64,000 nt of DNA from an uncultured archaeon (GTDB lineage Archaea; Iainarchaeota; Iainarchaeia; Iainarchaeales; 1-14-0-10-31-34). The position numbers were made by a program, and so were the translations under genes. The notes beneath the pieces were generated by a model. That model was given only the letters and a program-made list of their open reading frames with translations, searched no databases and was not told where the DNA came from. Positions 851-14,359 of the stretch are shown here, one piece after another; the first letter of the stretch is position 1, and the number at the start of each line of letters is the position of its first letter. The DNA is taken from positions 32,001 through 96,000 of the forward strand of contig CAZSOZ010000002.1 in NCBI GenBank assembly GCA_964608675.1, written 5' to 3'.

Positions 851-1191
851 AAATTGTTTTTAAATCTTCTCCTGTTTAACCTGTCATAAATTAGCATAAA
901 AATCTTTTCCAAAGGCAATCAGCGAAATGCCAGTTAATTGATTGGAGTAAGTTTAGGCTCCTTGAAAAATTTATAAGTATATCATTATACTGATATATTT
1001 TGTCTAATTTTATATCAGTTTAATGAAGAAGTTTTTTAAAGCTTTAAGTTAATTAAATCTGCTGATGGCTTGCCTAAAAATAATTTTGAAAAAAAAGATG
1101 TTCGACTGAAAGTCGTGCGTTTTTTGTTCAACCTTTTTTTGTAAAAAGGTTGGTTAACGCATTGGAAAGTCAAATGATTATAAAGAGCTCT

Positions 1192-4160
1192 TGAGTTTTT
1201 AGTAACAGTCAACTTAACATGTCGCCGTAGCTTCATGCTTACATTTCTGTCCTATCAAACCAGTGTTCTACTGGAACTCTCACTCCTATTCCTTTTGCCC
1301 CGCAAGACAAAAGTCGTCAGAGATGACTGACTCTTTTCAGGGACCGTTTCAAGCTTAGATGCTTTCAGCTTTTATCGGTTCCGGCGTGGCTACCCAGCAA
1401 CTGCCTTGTCAGACAACTGGTACACTAGAGGCCAGGACTCCACGTTCCTCTCGTACTTATGGAATCTTCCCCTCAGTCAATCGACATGTCCGATAGATAG
1501 GATCCAAACTGGCTCGCACCGTTCTTAACCCAACTAACGTAAGGCTTTAATGAGTTAACACCTCCACCCTTGGCAGCTTATGCACTGCCAGGATGCCTTG
1601 AGACGACGGCGAGGTCGCAAACCGCGGGGTCGATATGAGCTCTTGCCCGCGACCACTCAATTACCCCCAAGATAAGTTCACTGTTAGACTAGGCCCCCAT
1701 TAACAGGGACACTAGCGTTCGCTAGACCCATCTTTCGATTCGGCTTTACTTGCTGTGCGTAAAACCGTCAAGCGTGCTTTTGGTCTTACCCTCTATGGAG
1801 AATTTCTGACTCTCCTGAGCACACCTTTGGGCACCCCTGATACCCTTTCAGGGGTGTACCGCCCCAGTCCAACTACCCATCTAATGCTGTCCTCTTTCAA
1901 GTTAGAAGTATGCTTTCCTAAGGATGGTGTTACATTGACGTCTCCACAATTCCTGACGAAACTGCTTCGAAGACTACCATCTACTCTGTACATAGAAAAC
2001 CATACCACAACATCAAACTGTAGTAAACCTCTGTGGGGTCTTCTCTTCCCATCGGACATTCGAGGCATATTCACCTCGCAGTGAGTTCATTGGGCCCAAA
2101 TTAGGGACAGTGGGAATCTCGTTACTTCATTGGTGCAAGCCGGCATTAAACCGGCAAGGTATTACGCTACCGTGAGAGCCTCAGAGTTAGGCCCGCTCTT
2201 CACCAGCGCTTAGCTCCATTGAACTGAAGTTTAACGTACTGGCAGTGAGCAGAAGTCAGCCTCTATACAAACCATTACTGGCTAGCAGAGACCTGTGTTT
2301 TTGTTAAACAGTCGGACTCCCTTTGTCATTGAAACCTGCAATTTACTCAATCGCAGGCACCCCTTATACCTAAGATACAGGGCTAATTTGCCGAATTCCC
2401 TTAATTTGGTTCTCCCAACACGCCTAGGCCTTTTCAGCCAGGGGCACTCTTCCTAGTTCTTGGTACGGTTACATGAAATCCATTTTAGTTCCCTTTTTAC
2501 GAAACCCAGGCCTCAATTAAAGGTTTCCCCTATTTCTAAATTTAATCTGTTTCTCACCATTACAGTTCTCCACAGATTTATTTTAGTTGAATGCACAGAC
2601 AAATGCACTTAATTTAGCCTGAGCTGTTAGAAACTAAACTATCGTTGCCGAAAGTATTCATGCAGTACAGGAATATGAACCTGTTTCCCTTTCGTTCACG
2701 TCGATTTACGAGTGACCTTAGGACCGACTAACCCTTAGCTAATGATTAGCGCTAAGGAACCCTAGCCCATTCGGCGGAAAGAATTCTCATCTTTCTATTG
2801 TTATTACTAGCGCGAGGATCCATATTCATAATAGATCCACAAGAAATTTCTCTCTTGCTTCTACTCTACTATGACACCCCCCTACTCCATTTATTCTTAC
2901 GAATAAGGATATGGTATCGGCAGCTGGTTTTAGCCCAGTGAATTTTCAAGACCTTTATTCTAGGTAGGTGAGCTGTTACGCACTCTTTAAAGGATGGCTG
3001 CTTCTAAGCAAACCTCCCTACTGTATTAGAATAAAGATACTTTTCGTATTTACACTTAACCAGCATTTGTGGGCCTTAACCATATTTCAGGTTGTTCCCT
3101 TCTTGGAACAAGGGCTTACCCCTTGCCCCCTACTCCGGCCTTCAAAGACATTTATAGATTTGGAGTTTGACGAAAAAGCTGGAAGTTTCCAACCAGTACT
3201 TTCTAATCAGTATCTCGACACCATAAATTATCTCCAGCCAGGCTAGCCTTAGGGCTAATTCGAGAGGAGCCCGCTATGGCCGCGTTCGATGAGCATTTAA
3301 CTACCACTCCCAGATCACCAAAGTAGATAGACTAACACTTGTTGCGAACCTCCACCATCCGGTAGGACGGCTTCATTCTGTCCAGGAGTAACTCACGCGG
3401 ATTCGGGTTTTGCCCCAGTGACTAAAGCAGTTTAATACTTTCAATCTCATCTAAAAGACTGCATTGACTCGCTTTCGCTGTGATTTCAAGGTTAAACCTT
3501 TTAATCTCGCCACAGAGACAATCTCCCTCGCTCGTGATTCAAGACGAACGATATAACGCTGATCAAATTCCTTCGGCAGCAATTTTTCAATTACCTCCTT
3601 TAGGAATCATCTTTTCTTTAACGCTATATCTTGCTGTAACCAGTTAGTTTCAAGCGCTTTTAACCCCCTGTCAAGGGTACTTTTCAACTTTCCTTCGCAG
3701 TACTAGTATGCTATCGGTCTTGAGTAGTATTTAGAATTGGAAGTTAATGCCTCCCAAGTTCACGCGCAATATTCAATGCACGCTACTCTTGAAAACGAAA
3801 AATCATCCTTTTAAATTTTTTATTTACGAGGCTATCACTCTCTATGGCACTGCTTTCCAGCAGACTTCAATTAAATTTTAAGGATGTAAATCGCTCAACA
3901 CCACATCTCCTTAATATTACTATTAAGGATTCAGTTTGTTCTCTTCTGCCTTCGATCGACTCTAATAACAGAATCATATTCATTTTCTTTTCCTTCAGGT
4001 ACTAAGATGATTCAGTTCCCTGAGTATGCCTTTCCTTTCGGAATAATTCAGGAATCCCTGGCTCAAAGATTGCATTGCATCTCCCCAAGGCTTATCGCAG
4101 CTTGCCACGCCCTTCATCAGCACTCAAGCCTAGTTATCCACTAACTGGCGTAATAACTCT
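1192..4160 (-). rRNA. rrl: 23S rRNA (archaeal)
   Basis: Sarcin-ricin loop AGUACGAGAGGAAC, P-loop, and 5' region ttatcgcagcttgccacgcccttcatc on the + strand; about 2970 nt, ends approximate. Confidence 0.97.
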
Positions 4161-4448
4161 TTATATCCGATTGACTTTCCAATGCATCAACCGTCACGCC
4201 CGGTTGACGTGCGCGCAGTATCTTCGCTTTCGCTCGATACAGCTTACTCGCCAATGGCCGTTTATAACGATTGCTTCCCCCAAGAAAAAACTCCTGGAGT
4301 GCGTTAACATCACAATAATTTTGTGAACATGATTTTAGTTTGAATTTCAATTTATTTTTTCGTTATTTGAATTCCAAACCAAATTTATCAGAAACTTTTC
4401 GAAGAAAAGTTTCTTTTTTTTGATACAACTTTTTTAAAAAAAGTTGTT

Positions 4449-4522
4449 TGGACTCAACGGGATTCGAACCCGTGGCCTCCTGGTTGCAAACCAGGCGCTC
4501 TACCAAGCTGAGCTATGAGCCC
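4449..4522 (-). tRNA. tRNA-Ala(TGC) in the ITS
   Basis: GGGCTCATAGCTCAG...CCTGG TT TGC AA CCAGG...GTTCGAATCC...TGAGTCCA; G3:U70 identity pair. Confidence 0.97.
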
Positions 4523-4754
4523 AAAAAGCTGTCACGTCCAGCTTGCATACGGGTACAATCTTCGCTTAAGCCTTTGCAAGCAAACGCTTGCGAAAACAAG
4601 GGATGAATCCCTCCAGCTCGATTGAGCTGTTATCCAGCTTTGTCCATTAAAAAAAAATTGCAGTAAATGAACCTTAAAAAAGGCAAATTTTTTTTGAACC
4701 TGTTTTGGTTCCGATACTTCCAAAAGAAATACCGGAACCTTAGGTTCTAATTGA

Positions 4755-6240
4755 AGGAGGTGATCCGTCCGCAGGTTCCCCTACGGACACCTTGTTACAA
4801 CTTAGCCCGCTTTGCAGAAACTAGAATAACTTTAAGCAAGAACTTAAAGTTCATCCAGACCCCACTTAGCTGGCTTGATGGGCGGTGTGTGCAAGGCGCA
4901 GGGACTTATTCACCGGAAGATAATGACTTCCGATTACTGGGGATTCCAACTTCATGAGGCCGAGTTACAGACCTCAATCCGAACTGAGGTTAAGTTTAAG
5001 AGATTGCCTTGCCCTTTCGGGTTTGGAGCCCATTGTCTTAACCATTGTATGCCGCGTGTTGCCCAGGAGATTCGGGCCATACTGATCTACCGTTGCCCAC
5101 TCCTTCCTCGAAGTTACCTCCGCGGTCTTTATAGAGTGCTCCCGCTAAAAACGAAATAGCAACTATAAATGTGGGTCTCGCCCGTTGCCTGAGTTGACAG
5201 GACGCTTCATAGTACGAGCTGACGATGACCATACAACACCTCTCAGCGCGTCAGGAAAGCCCTTCAGACTGTCCATCATTCTGCTGTCACCCCTGGTGAA
5301 TTATCTGGCGTTGTATCCAATTGAACCGCAGCATCCACCCCTTGTAGTGCGCCCCCGCCAATTCCATTAAGTTTCAGCCTTGCGACCGTACTTCCCAGGC
5401 GGCAGACTTAACGGCTTCCCTTCGGCACCCCTACAGCCTGTAGCTGCTAGGACACCTAGTCTGCATCGTTTACGGCTGGGACTAACCGGGTATCTAATCC
5501 GGGTCGATCCCCCAGCTTTCGTTTCTCACCGTCAGGCCCGTTCTAGTCAAACGCCTTCGCTACTGGTGGTCCTCCTAAGATCATAGCATTTCACCGCTAC
5601 CTCAGGAATTCCTTTGACTTCTCCCGGCCTCGAGTCTAAGAGTATTCTTGGCACGCCTACAGGTTAAGCCTGCAGATTTCACCAAGGACTTTTTAGACCG
5701 GCTACAAACGCTTTAGGCCCAATATTAGTGGACACAACTTATGGAGTACGTATTACCGCGGCGGCTGGCACGTATCTTACCCTCCATTTATTCGCATAAC
5801 GTTTTAAATTATGCAAAAGCAAGCAAAGCTTGCACTTGAAATCCCCCTATCACGCTTTCGCGCATTGTAGAGAATTCGCAACTGCTGCACCCCGTAGGGC
5901 TAGGGACCTTATCTCAGTTCCCTTCTCCGGGCTCCCTCTCTCAAGGCCCGTATGGATCTTGGGCTTGGTGGGCAGTTACCCCGCCAACAACCTAATCCAC
6001 CGCAGTCCCGTCTTCAAGCGAATTGCATGCATGAATGCAATCCCTTTAGGCAATTAAATCTTCCAATATTAATTGCTTATAGAGCATTAGTCCCAGTTTC
6101 CCGGGGTTTACTCTTCTTAAAGGTAGGTTGACTACGTGTTACTGAGCCGTCCGCCACAGTCCATCATAGCATGAACTGTAAGACTTGCATGTTTGAGTCG
6201 GATTTCAATAGCAGTGTCCGCCAGCAGGATCAGCTGGTAT
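4755..6240 (-). rRNA. rrs: 16S rRNA (archaeal)
   Basis: 3' anti-SD GGAUCACCUCCU, 515F site GUGCCAGCCGCCGCGGUAA, 5' AUACCAGCUGAUCCUGCUGG; about 1486 nt. Confidence 0.97.
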
Positions 6241-8753: not shown

Positions 8754-9857
8754 ATGAATGAGAATCTGAATGAAATAGAAAAATTACAGAAAGCTTTGAA
8801 TGACAAAAACAAACAGGTTGTTGCTCAGGTTGCTCCTGCTTTAAGGGTTACTATAGGGGAACTATTTGGTTTTCCTGCAGGAACAATTTTAACTAAAAAA
8901 TTTGTTGGAGCACTAAAAGAATTGGGAATACAAAAAGTGTTTGATACTTCTTTTTCTGCTGATGTAGTTACGGTTGAAGAGGGAACTGAATTCATTAATA
9001 GGCTTAAAGAAAAAAATAATTTGCCTTTGTTTACTTCTTGTTGTCCTGGTTCAGTTGCTTTTGTTGAAAACAAGCATCCTGAATTAGTTTATCATTTTTG
9101 TACGGTTAAATCTCCTCAGCAGACAATGGGGGCTTTAATTAAAAGTTATTACACTGAAAAAATGAATTTAAGTCATGAAAACGTTTTTGTTGTTTCAATT
9201 ATGCCGTGTGTAGTAAAAAAAATTGAAGCAAAGCGTCCTGAAATGGATTTTAACGGAATTCATCATGTTGATGCAGTTTTAACTACTATGGATATAGCCA
9301 GATTATTAAAAGAAAAAGGAATTGATTTAAAGAATTCAAAGGAACAGGAGTTTGATTCAATTCTTGGAAACGCTACAGGCGCAGGACAATTGTTTGGTGT
9401 AACCGGAGGAGTCTCTGAATCTTTGTTAAGGTTTGTTTCACAGAAACTTGAACCAGAAAAAAAGAAAATTGAATTTAGAGAAGTAAGAGGCATGGAAGGA
9501 TTAAGGGAAAAAGAAATTGAAATTGCAGGAAAAAAAATCAGGATTGCAGTTGTTCATGGTTTGCATAACTTAAATAATTTGATTTTGGATAAAAAAAAGT
9601 TTGAGTCTTTTCAGGTAATTGAAATGATGGCTTGTCCTGGCGGATGCATTGGGGGGGGAGGTCAGCCGAAATCTACTCCTGAAACAAGGGAAAAAAGAAT
9701 TCAGGCTTTAAGAAAAGTTGATTCATCTGAATCAGTAAAAATTTCTTCTGAAAGTGATGAAGTAAAAGAATTATATAAAACTTTTTTGATGAAACCGGGT
9801 TCAAAAAAAGCAAGGGATTTACTGCACACGAAAAGAATCTGCTTGAAATGCGATTAA
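8754..9857 (+). CDS. hydA: Minimal [FeFe]-hydrogenase (H-cluster domain only, group A-like)
   Basis: QVAPALR; L1 TSCCPG; L2 MPCVVKKIE; L3 EMMACPGGCIGGGGQP; C-terminal LLHT plus CLKC. Confidence 0.95.
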   Translation: MNENLNEIEKLQKALNDKNKQVVAQVAPALRVTIGELFGFPAGTILTKKFVGALKELGIQKVFDTSFSADVVTVEEGTEFINRLKEKNNLPLFTSCCPGSVAFVENKHPELVYHFCTVKSPQQTMGALIKSYYTEKMNLSHENVFVVSIMPCVVKKIEAKRPEMDFNGIHHVDAVLTTMDIARLLKEKGIDLKNSKEQEFDSILGNATGAGQLFGVTGGVSESLLRFVSQKLEPEKKKIEFREVRGMEGLREKEIEIAGKKIRIAVVHGLHNLNNLILDKKKFESFQVIEMMACPGGCIGGGGQPKSTPETREKRIQALRKVDSSESVKISSESDEVKELYKTFLMKPGSKKARDLLHTKRICLKCD

Positions 9858-11444: not shown

Positions 11445-12317
11445 TTAGGATACAACTCGGTTTAACTGGAATTCCAGAATGTCTGTTGCGCCTGCTTTGA
11501 TTATTTTTGGAAGAATTTTTGGAATCATTTCTTTGTTTACTGCTACTTTCACTGCATAACCTTGTTCTGCAAAAAGCTCGCTTACAGTAGGGCTTTTCAT
11601 GCAAGGAAGAATTTTAACTAATCCGTCTAGTTTTTCTTTTGGAACATTCATTTCAAGCATTACTTTTTGCATTCCAAGCAATGCTGCTTCTAATAGCATT
11701 TTTATTTCATTTATTTTGTTTTTTTTCCATTTATCTTTTAAAGCTTTTTTGTTTGAAATCATTGTTGTAACCGACTCAAATACAATGTCAACTGCCCTTA
11801 AATTGTTTGTTTTAAGTGTTGTTCCTGTTTCAGTTAAATCAATTATTGCATCAGCAAAAATAGGGCATTTAACTTCTGTTGCGCCCCAGGAAAATTCTGC
11901 TTTGGCTTTAACCTTGTTTTTTTTAAAATATTTTTTTGTTAAATTCATTAATTCAGTTGAAACAGTTTTTCCTTCTAAATCTTTTACTGATTTGATTTTA
12001 GAGTTTTTTGGAACAGCCAAAACCCATTTAACTTTATTAAAGCCTTGTTTAGCATATTCAAATTCTTTTATTTTTTCTACTTTTACTTCAGTTTCTTTAA
12101 TCCAATCTAATCCGGTTATCCCTAAATCAATTACTTTATCTTCAACAAACATTGGAATTTCCTGTGGCTTAATTAAAGTTATTTCCACTTCTTTATCGCT
12201 TGTTACAGGATAATAAGAACGAGAATTAACTGTTATTTCAATTCCTGCTTTGCTGAATAACTCTATTGTTGTTTTCTGCAGACTGCCTGTGGGCAGTCCG
12301 ATTTTTAGTTTGTTCAT
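11445..12317 (-). CDS. hisG: ATP phosphoribosyltransferase (long form)
   Basis: KIGLPTGSL; DLGITGLD; SWGATE; DAIIDLTETGTTL; C-terminal regulatory domain. Confidence 0.96.
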   Translation of the reverse strand: MNKLKIGLPTGSLQKTTIELFSKAGIEITVNSRSYYPVTSDKEVEITLIKPQEIPMFVEDKVIDLGITGLDWIKETEVKVEKIKEFEYAKQGFNKVKWVLAVPKNSKIKSVKDLEGKTVSTELMNLTKKYFKKNKVKAKAEFSWGATEVKCPIFADAIIDLTETGTTLKTNNLRAVDIVFESVTTMISNKKALKDKWKKNKINEIKMLLEAALLGMQKVMLEMNVPKEKLDGLVKILPCMKSPTVSELFAEQGYAVKVAVNKEMIPKILPKIIKAGATDILEFQLNRVVS

Positions 12318-12982
12318 TTAATTTCCTCCAAAGAAATTTTTTCTGAATATAATGCCATTCCAATAACAGGTTTAACCCTGATTTTTTCCAGTTTTCTTGC
12401 TTCCTGAATTGAAGTAATTCCTCCTGCTACACTCAAATCTTTTTTAGTGCTCTTTCGCAATTTTTTTATTATTCCAAAATCTGTTCCCTTCATTAATCCT
12501 TCTTTTTCAACGCAAGTGAAAAGAAATTCCCCACAAAAATCTTCAAGTTCTGAAATCACTTCAAAAGGAGTTTTATTTGTTTTTTTCTTCCATCCTTGAA
12601 TTACAACTTTTCCTTTAAAAGAATCAACTGCAACAATAATTTTTTTCTTTGAAATTTTTTCAGTTAATTTTTCAAGAAACTCTTTATCTGCTTTTGTCCC
12701 AATAATAATTTTTTTTGCTCTACAATCAATTAATTCTTCTGCTTTTTCAATGCTCCTGATTCCTCCTCCAACTCTTGCATTTACAATTCCTGCTATTTCT
12801 TTTACAATCAAAGTGTTTTCTCCGTTATTCATTGCCTTATCCAAATCAATTACCTGCACTTCTTTGAATCCTTTGAATTTTCCTGCAAAATAAAAAGGGT
12901 TATTTATTTCAATCACTTTTTTTCTTCCTTGCTGAAGCTGAACTACTTTTCCTTGAATTAAATCAATGCTTGGAATAATCAT
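12314..12982 (-). CDS. hisA: ProFAR isomerase
   Basis: IIPSIDLIQGKVVQL; VGGGIRS; AGGI. Confidence 0.93.
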   Translation of the reverse strand: MIIPSIDLIQGKVVQLQQGRKKVIEINNPFYFAGKFKGFKEVQVIDLDKAMNNGENTLIVKEIAGIVNARVGGGIRSIEKAEELIDCRAKKIIIGTKADKEFLEKLTEKISKKKIIVAVDSFKGKVVIQGWKKKTNKTPFEVISELEDFCGEFLFTCVEKEGLMKGTDFGIIKKLRKSTKKDLSVAGGITSIQEARKLEKIRVKPVIGMALYSEKISLEEIK

Positions 12983-13758
12983 ATTCTCACCTTAATGTTT
13001 TGTTTTTTCAGATATTGTTTTACTTCTTTAACTGAATACTTTCCATAGTGAAAAACGCTTGCAGCTAAAACTGCGTCTGCTTTGCCTTTTTTTATTGCTT
13101 TAGCAAAACTTTCTAGTGTTCCCGCTCCTCCTGAAGCAATAACAGGAATATTAACTGAATCAGAAATCAATGAAGTTAGCTCTAAATTAAATCCTTTTTG
13201 TGTGCCGTCTGAATCCATTGAAGTAAGCAGAATTTCTCCTGCGCCAAGCTTTTTTGACTGCTTTGCCCAATACAATGCATTTAATCTGGTGTTTTTTTTT
13301 CCTCCAAAAACAAAGCATTCAAATCTTTTCCTTCCTTTAAATGAATTCTTTTTTGCATCAATTGCAATAACGCATGCCTGTGAACCAAACTCTTTGCTTA
13401 TTTTTGTTATTAATTCAGGTGAATTAATTGCGGCAGAATTAACTGAAATTTTGTCTGCTCCTGCCTTAAACAATTTTTCTGCATCTTTTATTGTTTTGGT
13501 TCCTCCTCCAACAGTTAATGGAACAAAAACCTGTTCACTTACTTTTTTGACTACTTCAATCATTGTTTTTCTTTTTTCTGCTGAAGCAGTTATGTCAAGT
13601 AAAACTATTTCATCTGCTCCTTGTTCATAGTATTGTTTAGCCATTTCTTCAGGGATTCCGGCATACTTTATTTGATTGAATTTTATTCCTTTAACTACTC
13701 TTCCTTCTTTTACTCCTAAATCGCAGTCCAAGCAAGCAATAATTCTTTTTGACAGCAT
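12979..13758 (-). CDS. hisF: Imidazole glycerol phosphate synthase cyclase subunit
   Basis: MLSKRIIACLD; GRVVKG; LDITAS; TSMDSDGT; IASGGAG. Confidence 0.96.
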   Translation of the reverse strand: MLSKRIIACLDCDLGVKEGRVVKGIKFNQIKYAGIPEEMAKQYYEQGADEIVLLDITASAEKRKTMIEVVKKVSEQVFVPLTVGGGTKTIKDAEKLFKAGADKISVNSAAINSPELITKISKEFGSQACVIAIDAKKNSFKGRKRFECFVFGGKKNTRLNALYWAKQSKKLGAGEILLTSMDSDGTQKGFNLELTSLISDSVNIPVIASGGAGTLESFAKAIKKGKADAVLAASVFHYGKYSVKEVKQYLKKQNIKVRI

Positions 13759-13762
13759 TTTT

Positions 13763-14359
13763 TCACAACTCAATAAATTTTTTCAATACTTTTAATCCAT
13801 TTTTTCCTGATTTTTCTGGGTGAAACTGAAAAGCAAAAACATTTTCTTTTTCTATTCCGGAAACAAATTCTTCTCCTTGATAACTGCTTGTACAGGAAAT
13901 AATTTTTTTTTCTTCTGGAACAGGATAAAAACTGTTAACAAAATAAAAAAATTTTCCATTTAATCCTGAGAGCAGCCCATTATTTTTTTTCACTTTGATT
14001 TTGTTCCAGCCAATCTGAGGAATCTTTTTTGCTTTAGAAAATCTTTTGTTTTTTCCCTTAAAAACTCCGAAGCCTCTTCCTTTGTTTTCCTCGCTTTCTT
14101 CAAACAATGCCTGCAGTCCTAAACAGATTCCAAGAAAAGGAGTGCCTTGTTTTATTGACTGGATTAGTGCTTTATCCAGTTTTTTTTCTTCAAGTTTTCT
14201 GGCCATGGTTCCGAATTCTCCTACTCCTGGAAAAACAATTTTTTCTGCTTTAAGTATTTTTTTCGGATTATTTGTTTCACTAACTGTTTCTCCCAGAAAC
14301 TCAAGAGAATTTTTCAGGCTTTGAATATTGCCTTTTCCATAGTCAACTATTGAAATCAT
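13763..14359 (-). CDS. hisH: Imidazole glycerol phosphate synthase glutaminase subunit
   Basis: DYGKGN; PGVG; GICLGLQ; QFHPEKSG. Confidence 0.96.
   Translation of the reverse strand: MISIVDYGKGNIQSLKNSLEFLGETVSETNNPKKILKAEKIVFPGVGEFGTMARKLEEKKLDKALIQSIKQGTPFLGICLGLQALFEESEENKGRGFGVFKGKNKRFSKAKKIPQIGWNKIKVKKNNGLLSGLNGKFFYFVNSFYPVPEEKKIISCTSSYQGEEFVSGIEKENVFAFQFHPEKSGKNGLKVLKKFIEL

What the first reader, a model, noticed from the sequence alone, without database searches (positions are those of the whole stretch)
1500..1670. Strongly divergent peptidyl-transferase centre
Seen (E. coli numbering by manual alignment): ACCUCGCCGUCG instead of ACCUCGAUGUCG gives A2503C and U2504C (window 1609, 1608). 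GGGGUAAUUG instead of GGGAUAACAG gives A2448G, C2452U and A2453U (1664, 1660, 1659). CGUUAGUUGGG gives G2576U (1536). The A-loop flank is also altered (G2551, A2556, A2557). Catalytic A2451, U2506, U2585, A2602 and G2553 are kept. Known: 2452, 2503, 2504 and 2576 are near-invariant and are resistance sites for chloramphenicol, anisomycin or linezolid, and A2503 is the RlmN/Cfr target. Inference: C2452U/U2504C is a compensatory swap, and the A-site cleft is naturally remodelled and drug-insensitive.
Basis: partly seen in the sequence, partly recalled or inferred. Interest (0 to 1): 0.75.

Follow-up and report, generated by a model that had tools for sequence, protein, structure and literature searches.

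The report
Iainarchaeales variant ribosome active site
This tiny uncultured archaeon and its order carry real, inherited changes in the bases lining the ribosome's peptide-bond-forming site while the catalytic bases stay intact; each change also occurs in other archaea, so it is likely tolerated drift of a known kind, with weaker binding of some antibiotics as a predicted side effect.

Summary
All six substitutions are real at the stated coordinates (E. coli rrlB numbering). They sit in the only 23S gene found in this Iainarchaeales (DPANN) genome, and independent contigs repeat them. They are inherited: five family relatives are identical, and the six-base set occurs in 33 of 94 order members but in 0 of 214 outside loci.

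These bases are near-invariant in bacteria only. C2503 is in 51 of 51 Thermococci matches and 26 of 26 Micrarchaeota loci; U2452 and U2576 are common in Aenigmatarchaeota. C2452U/U2504C is not a compensatory swap: 3 shared changes against 2.0 expected (p=0.33), in a test that recovers known pairs; the two bases do not pair in archaeal structures. The site is no more changed than the rest of this rRNA (8/49 vs 84/636, p=0.52) and no more than in other DPANN groups. RlmN was not found.

This is a new variant of the divergent archaeal PTCs of Nissley et al. Reduced anisomycin binding is plausible but untested. The scan noted this order-wide feature before on other DNA.

The parts
1179..4165 (-). 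23S rRNA gene, the only copy found in G000
   Evidence: Rfam RF02540, 2541.7 bits; one match in the genome
1659..1665 (-). PTC segment 2447-2453: G2447, G2448 (variant), U2449, A2450, A2451 (kept), U2452 and U2453 (variants)
   Evidence: alignment to E. coli rrlB
1603..1613 (-). PTC segment 2499-2509: C2503, C2504 and U2509 variants; G2505 and U2506 kept
1553..1563 (-). A-loop of helix 92: G2553 kept; G2551.A2557 is common in archaea; A2556 is in 65 of 98 order members
1526..1540 (-). Segment 2572-2586: U2576, U2579 and A2586 variants; G2583, U2584 and U2585 kept
1501..1510 (-). Segment 2602-2611: A2602 kept; A2609, U2610; C2611 faces A2057
2038..2046 (-). Segment 2055-2063: archaeal-type A2055 and G2058; A2057; G2061 and C2063 kept
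1862..1864 (-). P-loop G2251-G2253, unchanged
2303..2303 (-). C1782, the co-changing partner of A2586
   Evidence: 26 shared changes against 3.9 expected; C.A in 58 and U.G in 24 of 84 order rows
2180..2190 (-). Helix 69 pair 1910-1920, flipped from G-C to C-G
   Evidence: 96 of 96 Iainarchaeota rows
4448..4523 (-). tRNA-Ala(UGC) in the 16S-23S spacer
4755..6240 (-). 16S rRNA gene of the same operon
   Evidence: Rfam RF01959

Best explanation
This is the only 23S rRNA gene found in an Iainarchaeales archaeon, with intact catalytic bases and lineage-inherited changes in the bases that line and back the A-site cleft, and it likely works as an ordinary peptidyl transferase because the open archaeal form of the cleft lets those positions drift. 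Shown: the sequence, its inheritance, the kept core, the spread of each change across archaea, and the lack of 2452/2504 co-change. From published structures: in archaea base 2504 is flipped onto A2055 and a short uL3 loop makes room, so the bacterial 2452-2504 and 2453-2500 pairs are absent. Inferred: G000 has A2055 and a Thermococcus-length uL3 loop, so it should share that geometry. Its fast-evolving, AT-drifting rRNA then fixes tolerated changes here at about the rate seen at other conserved positions. G2448 and C2503 look old (shared with Micrarchaeota), U2576 is nearly fixed in the order, and 2452 toggles between C and U. Weaker binding of anisomycin-type A-site drugs is a likely by-product (about 0.6) rather than the cause.
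For: Core bases at least 99% invariant across about 285 archaeal rows are all kept. Each variant recurs in unrelated archaea: on a 254-row tree 2448 changes 13 times, 2452 27, 2453 29, 2503 22, 2504 16 and 2576 8. C2503 is in 51 of 51 Thermococci matches. No enrichment in the PTC ring: 8 of 49 vs 84 of 636, p=0.52; 5 of 43 vs 110 of 759, p=0.82. Median ring changes are 8 in Iainarchaeales and 6-7 in Micrarchaeota, Nanobdellota, Aenigmatarchaeota and Thermoplasmatota. A2055 is present. The uL3 GAISPWNP loop aligns without a gap to PDB 6SKF uL3. Five of the six positions have support as tolerant or dispensable: A2448, A2503 and U2504 are among the flexible sites in E. coli in vitro (PMC7049736), C2452U is viable in yeast, and U2453 is the eukaryotic state (PMC5154188).
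Against: G2448 (96 of 96), non-A 2503 (96 of 96) and U2576 (95 of 98) are fixed across the order, which free drift alone does not predict. U2452 comes with C2504 in 42 of 43 Iainarchaeales rows and 10 of 10 Thermoproteota rows, and fills 47% of C2504 branch length against 20% of U2504 branch length, so a permissive link may exist. The enrichment test is blunt, because the outside set includes helix positions with compensated changes. No structure or activity of this ribosome exists.
Confidence: 0.65

Rival explanations
1. The fixed changes (G2448, C2503, U2576, U2509.U2579, unpaired 2057.2611, A2556) form an interdependent alternative architecture that arose step by step and is now entrenched by epistasis.
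For: G2448, non-A 2503 and U2576 are fixed in the order. U2452 occurs almost only with C2504 here. Weak co-change of 2576 with 2549/2559 and of 2552 with 2556 (p about 1e-3 and 1.6e-4 among 2926 pairs). Nissley et al. found synergy among three PTC changes.
Against: None of the six positions has a co-changing partner that survives correction for 2926 tests. The same bases occur singly on other backgrounds. This rival is compatible with the best explanation and differs only in degree.
Confidence: 0.22
2. The changes were selected to escape natural A-site-cleft inhibitors made by neighbours or hosts.
For: C2452U abolishes anisomycin protection in yeast. C2452U and U2504C are resistance alleles in Thermus. 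G2576U is the common linezolid allele (recalled; listings). Nissley et al. raise drug evasion as a possible consequence.
Against: No enrichment in the ring. 2452 reverts about as often as it changes (15 C>U, 12 U>C under an arbitrary root). The same alleles are fixed in hyperthermophilic Thermococci and in gut methanogens with unlike ecologies. No producer or exposure is known.
Confidence: 0.08
3. C2452U and U2504C are a strict compensatory swap that keeps a pyrimidine pair between the two bases.
For: The pair exists in E. coli. U.C is the commonest state in the order, 42 of 95.
Against: C.C in 31 of 95 order rows; U.U in 13 of 17 Aenigmatarchaeota, 5 of 29 Nanobdellota and 4 of 30 Thermoplasmatota rows. 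Shared changes 3 vs 2.0 expected. In 12 independent pairs, 2504 follows 2452 in 1.5 on average. The bases do not interact in archaeal structures.
Confidence: 0.04
4. Assembly error, chimera or pseudogene.
For: The source is an assembled draft genome, and the reads could be checked only as contigs.
Against: Identical contigs in a DNA run and in an RNA-library run of another study; identical bases in five relatives; single full-length copy with compensated helices.
Confidence: 0.01

Closest known systems
Divergent PTCs of Thermoprotei and Methanomethylicia (Pyrobaculum calidifontis; Nissley et al., bioRxiv 10.1101/2024.11.12.623245)
   Same: Natural, clade-wide changes in 2447-2453 and 2500-2504 around an unchanged catalytic core; U2504C is shared; short archaeal uL3 loop; overlap with resistance alleles.
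   Different: P. calidifontis has A2447, C2453, C2500, A2501 and C2554/C2555; G000 keeps the canonical base at 2447, 2500, 2501, 2554 and 2555. It instead has G2448, U2452, U2453, C2503, U2576 and A2556. The preprint text has no mention of DPANN, Iainarchaeota, 2448, 2503 or 2576; figures and supplements were not seen.
Open A-site cleft of archaeal and eukaryotic ribosomes (PMC5154188)
   Same: A2055 as the stacking partner of 2504; U2453 facing U2500, as in eukaryotes.
   Different: Those structures keep C2452 and U2504. Status of A2503 and G2576 in them is recalled, not checked.
Laboratory PTC resistance alleles: yeast C2820U (= C2452U, PMC2275155); Thermus C2452U and U2504C (PMC7345174); G2576U (linezolid, recalled)
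   Same: Same base changes.
   Different: Those are single selected mutants, with a ribosome defect in the yeast case. Here they are combined and inherited, and no drug was tested.
Natural C2503 in Thermococci, Micrarchaeota and Methanomassiliicoccales
   Same: Same base at the bacterial RlmN/Cfr site.
   Different: Thermococci carry it as the only ring change (1 of 49).

Membership tests
Functional archaeal 23S rRNA (RF02540) | Full-length match to the archaeal LSU model, in an rRNA operon | tested here: met
   Model positions 1-2987, 2541.7 bits; 16S and tRNA-Ala upstream
Functional archaeal 23S rRNA (RF02540) | Catalytic and tRNA-binding bases kept (G2061, C2063, A2450, A2451, U2506, G2553, U2585, A2602, G2251-G2253) | tested here: met
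Functional archaeal 23S rRNA (RF02540) | Transcribed and built into ribosomes | tested here: inconclusive
   An identical 285-nt contig is in an RNA library (X8); contigs give no strand or level, and no silent-stretch control was obtained
Divergent archaeal PTC (Nissley type) | Clade-wide changes at conserved positions in 2447-2453 and 2500-2504 | tested here: met
   G2448 96/96, non-A 2503 96/96, C2504 74/96, U2453 76/97, U2452 45/97
Divergent archaeal PTC (Nissley type) | The P. calidifontis base set (A2447, C2453, C2500, A2501, C2504) | tested here: not met
   Only C2504 is shared
Divergent archaeal PTC (Nissley type) | Short archaeal uL3 loop next to the PTC | tested here: met
   The loop aligns without a gap to 6SKF uL3; no direct alignment to E. 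coli uL3 was made
Divergent archaeal PTC (Nissley type) | Rearranged base triples that hold the invariant bases in place | not testable with these tools
   Needs a structure
Compensatory base-pair swap 2452/2504 | The two positions change together on the tree | tested here: not met
   3 vs 2.0 expected, p=0.33; true pairs are recovered, e.g. 2548-2560 25 vs 2.9
Drug-resistant ribosome | Reduced inhibitor binding or inhibition | not testable with these tools
   Only analogy to mutants in other organisms
RlmN/Cfr target site | Adenine at 2503 and an RlmN-family enzyme in the genome | tested here: not met
   C at 2503; no TIGR00048 match in G000, 94% complete

The most novel reading that the evidence does not exclude
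Iainarchaeales run a cooperatively rebuilt A-site cleft and tunnel entrance (G2448, C2503/C2504, U2576, U2509.U2579, unpaired 2057.2611, A2556) that is a second stable architecture of the catalytic centre, kept by selection and blind to most A-site inhibitors.
Probability: 0.15. Interest if true: 0.72.

Novelty: new variant of a known kind. Interest (0 to 1): 0.38.

Why it matters
[quoted passage not shown] It also shows that A2503, C2452 and G2576, often called universal, are bacterial constants only. The most usable by-product is that C2503 is the normal base in the Thermococci sampled, and U2452 with C2503 occurs in Methanomassiliicoccales. Both groups include cultured members, so these variants can be studied without culturing a DPANN archaeon. 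The tolerated set also maps which PTC positions can be changed in ribosome engineering.

Tried and rejected
Compensatory 2452/2504 swap: rejected. PTC-specific acceleration: not found with two definitions of conserved positions. Search for a hidden partner of 2448, 2452, 2453, 2503, 2504 or 2576 among 2926 position pairs: none survives correction. Idea that A2556 replaces RlmE methylation of U2552: TIGR00438 is over cut-off in 0 of 215 phylum genomes, including lineages that keep C2556, so it does not track the change; fibrillarin is present. Scan of G000 for box C/D guides complementary to the variant PTC: 1 hit on 23S, outside the PTC, against 1-4 in shuffled controls. Blastn of the PTC against E. 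coli genomes found only one plasmid-labelled record, which was not used; numbering comes from K-12 rrlB. Runs X1, X2, X4 and X8 were laid; the other 17 listed were not and are no evidence. The silent-stretch control for the RNA library was not obtained. The supplement of PMC7049736 (per-mutant activities) and the journal version of Nissley et al. could not be read.

Full report
Observation. The interval lies in domain V of a full-length archaeal 23S rRNA gene on the minus strand (1179-4165; RF02540, 2541.7 bits), downstream of 16S and tRNA-Ala. It is the only copy found in G000, a 1.2 Mb genome that is 94% complete. Alignment to E. coli K-12 rrlB confirms every substitution at the coordinates given: A2448G (1664), C2452U (1660), A2453U (1659), A2503C (1609), U2504C (1608), G2576U (1536), and G2551, A2556, A2557. 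G2061, C2063, A2450, A2451, G2505, U2506, G2553, G2583-U2585, A2602 and the P-loop are kept. Further changes are G2509U with C2579U, U2586A with U1782C, A2057 facing C2611, and U2609A.

Not an artefact. Of 21 runs listed I laid four. DNA run X2 has contigs over 1390-1622 and 1593-2154 with no difference; X1 and X2 may be the source sample and are not independent. RNA-library run X8, from another study, has a contig over 1489-1773 with no difference at mean word depth 942. Contigs give no strand or level, and I have no silent-stretch control, so expression is not shown.

Lineage and inheritance. Five records titled Ca. Iainarchaeum archaeon share contig lengths with members of the window's phylum set, so I infer Iainarchaeota, main order Iainarchaeales. 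Of 215 phylum genomes, 125 matched. I took 110 loci, left 15 genomes with short fragments unfetched, and dropped L113 as a bacterial-type gene, leaving 99 order rows and 10 from other orders. In the order, G2448 is in 96 of 96, non-A 2503 in 96 of 96 (92 C, 4 U), U2576 in 95 of 98, U2453 in 76 of 97, C2504 in 74 of 96 and U2452 in 45 of 97. The five other family members are identical at all six positions. The six-base set is in 33 of 94 complete order rows from 13 families, and in 0 of 10 rows from other orders.

How unusual in archaea. A scan of 15 of 64 parts of the genome collection for non-A 2503 returned 119 stretches (about 530 estimated overall). By eye, 1 is not rRNA, 2 are bacterial-type and 116 archaeal-type, spread over Methanomassiliicoccales, Methanofastidiosa, Thermococcus, Bathyarchaeia, Micrarchaeota, Altiarchaeota, Woesearchaeota and others. 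I then sampled phyla around seed genomes from that scan; phylum names come from the seed records' titles. All 51 matches in 50 of 51 Thermococci-group genomes have C2503 (read by eye; 30 of 30 by script). Micrarchaeota loci have G2448 and C2503 in 26 of 26, but only 17 of 161 and 24 of 111 genomes matched the pattern (two non-rRNA rows dropped), so that sample is biased. Aenigmatarchaeota have U2452 in 15 of 17 and U2576 in 17 of 17. Thermoplasmatota have U2453 in 29 of 30. By hand count of 90 Nanobdellota rows (two of 92 dropped), G2448 is in 14, U2452 in 12, non-A 2503 in 15 and C2504 in 20, with U2452 and C2504 together once. One Thermoproteota locus (L323) has five of the six bases but keeps G2576. 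The full set is in 0 of 162 such loci, 0 of 17 Asgard and 0 of 35 bacterial loci; 34 of the 35 bacterial loci are canonical at all six. G2551.A2557 is in all Thermococci, Nanobdellota and Aenigmatarchaeota rows, so only A2556 is distinctive in the A-loop. Loci are the first 30 in the tool's order, not random, and each group includes its seed genome. Halobacteriota and Methanobacteria were not sampled.

The swap. On an 87-row Iainarchaeota tree built without the PTC columns, 2452 changes 13 times and 2504 five times; in 12 independent pairs 2504 follows 2452 in 1.5 on average. On a 254-row archaeal tree the two change on the same branch 3 times against 2.0 expected (p=0.33). The same test recovers 2548-2560 (25 vs 2.9), 2456-2495 (21 vs 2.1), 1782-2586 (26 vs 3.9) and 2057-2611 (17 vs 2.9). 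U.U and C.C states are common. Published comparisons say that in archaea and eukaryotes 2504 stacks on A2055 and cannot interact with C2452 (PMC5154188, passages), and that the flipped 2504 is general in archaeal ribosomes (Nissley et al.). Against my reading, U2452 comes with C2504 in 42 of 43 order rows and 10 of 10 Thermoproteota rows, so a weak permissive link is not excluded.

Is the PTC singled out? Among 685 positions conserved in bacteria and most free-living archaeal groups sampled, G000 differs at 8 of 49 in the PTC ring and 84 of 636 elsewhere (odds ratio 1.28, p=0.52). A second definition gave 5 of 43 vs 110 of 759 (p=0.82). Ring changes per genome have a median of 8 in Iainarchaeales (range 5-12), 7 in Micrarchaeota, Nanobdellota and Aenigmatarchaeota, 6 in Thermoplasmatota, 1 in Thermococci and 0 in bacteria. 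The highest values, up to 16, are in Thermoproteota loci that resemble records titled Bathyarchaeia. The window is therefore typical of DPANN, not an outlier. The test is blunt because the outside set includes helix positions.

Mechanism. Shown: intact core, inherited variant lining, recurrence across archaea. From the literature: archaeal ribosomes have an open cleft and a shorter uL3 loop, and deleting E. coli uL3 Q150 raised a triple PTC mutant from 18% to 34% activity (Nissley et al.). Inferred: G000 has A2055, U2453 facing U2500, and a uL3 loop that aligns without a gap to 6SKF uL3, so these positions are freed from the bacterial pairings and accept substitutions (0.65). An entrenched cooperative architecture (0.22) and selection by inhibitors (0.08) are the main rivals. 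Lower drug binding is plausible as a consequence: C2452U confers anisomycin resistance in yeast (PMC2275155, passages), and C2452U and U2504C are resistance alleles in Thermus (PMC7345174, passages and tables). G2576U as a linezolid allele is recalled and seen only in search listings. RlmN has no match in G000 or in three of the four archaeal controls, so loss of its target has no evident meaning here.

Comparison and novelty. The closest work is Nissley et al. (bioRxiv 10.1101/2024.11.12.623245). I read parts 1-2 of 7 and further passages, not the figures or supplements; the journal version was not held. It reports up to six variant positions in Thermoprotei and Methanomethylicia, says archaeal PTC bases are less conserved than bacterial ones, and already suggests drug evasion. 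Its text does not mention DPANN, Iainarchaeota, 2448, 2503 or 2576, though its GTDB-wide supplements may hold these rows. Ten paper searches found no description of the Iainarchaeales pattern; subscription journals are mostly not covered. PMC7049736 (passages; supplement unreadable) lists A2448, A2503 and U2504 as flexible in E. coli in vitro. Passages of PMC4652758 and PMC12605026 and a term search of bioRxiv 10.1101/2024.10.31.621234 added nothing.

Earlier notes of this scan. They describe the same order-wide feature on another genome (e1-9887099) and parallel cases in Micrarchaeota, Aenigmatarchaeota and Bathyarchaeia. My data agree, except that by my ring count Iainarchaeales do not carry the most changes.

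Verdict. A real, order-level variant of a known phenomenon; the swap and near-invariance claims fall; drug insensitivity is untested. Interest 0.38.

Noticed in passing
L370-L399 and one search matches (Thermococci): C2503 is the normal base in all 51 matches from 50 Thermococci-group genomes, as their only change in the PTC ring; my paper search for C2503 in Thermococcus found no mention.
   Followed up: partly
L153, L204, L207, L221 (Methanomassiliicoccales records): Gut-type methanogens carry U2452, U2453 and C2503 with U2504, a natural test case for the anisomycin-site change.
   Followed up: partly
L058:2065-2118 and L092:2068-2143; window 4393-4447 and 1129-1152: AT-rich hairpin insertions of roughly 70-90 nt interrupt the helix 89 loop of 23S in two relatives (G018, G083). 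Similar AT-rich hairpins follow tRNA-Ala and the 23S end in the window. They may be the two-hairpin cassette of earlier notes.
   Followed up: partly
window 2044 and 1501: The 2057-2611 pair, Watson-Crick in most other groups, is A.A in 58 and A.C in 24 of 90 Iainarchaeales rows and C.A in 21 of 26 Micrarchaeota rows.
   Followed up: partly
window 2303 and 1526: Positions 1782 and 2586 co-change strongly; Iainarchaeales use C.A or U.G where E. coli has U.U.
   Followed up: yes
phylum-wide: No RlmE/rrmJ family match over cut-off in 215 Iainarchaeota genomes, although fibrillarin is present in G000.
   Followed up: partly
window 2120-2200: Helices 69-71 also differ: flipped 1910-1920 pair, C1916, C1926, C1928, C1968.
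   Followed up: partly
L113 (G211:C75): A bacterial-type 23S fragment inside an Iainarchaeota genome, probably mis-binned; several records titled as bacteria carry archaeal-type 23S.
   Followed up: no
L265 (G402:C9:2925-3065): A Nanobdellota match with G at 2452 and changes around 2501-2507; very divergent gene or pseudogene, left out of the counts.
   Followed up: no
window 8754-9857 and 11445-14359: By eye, an [FeFe]-hydrogenase-like ORF and a histidine biosynthesis cluster; not searched against any library.
   Followed up: no
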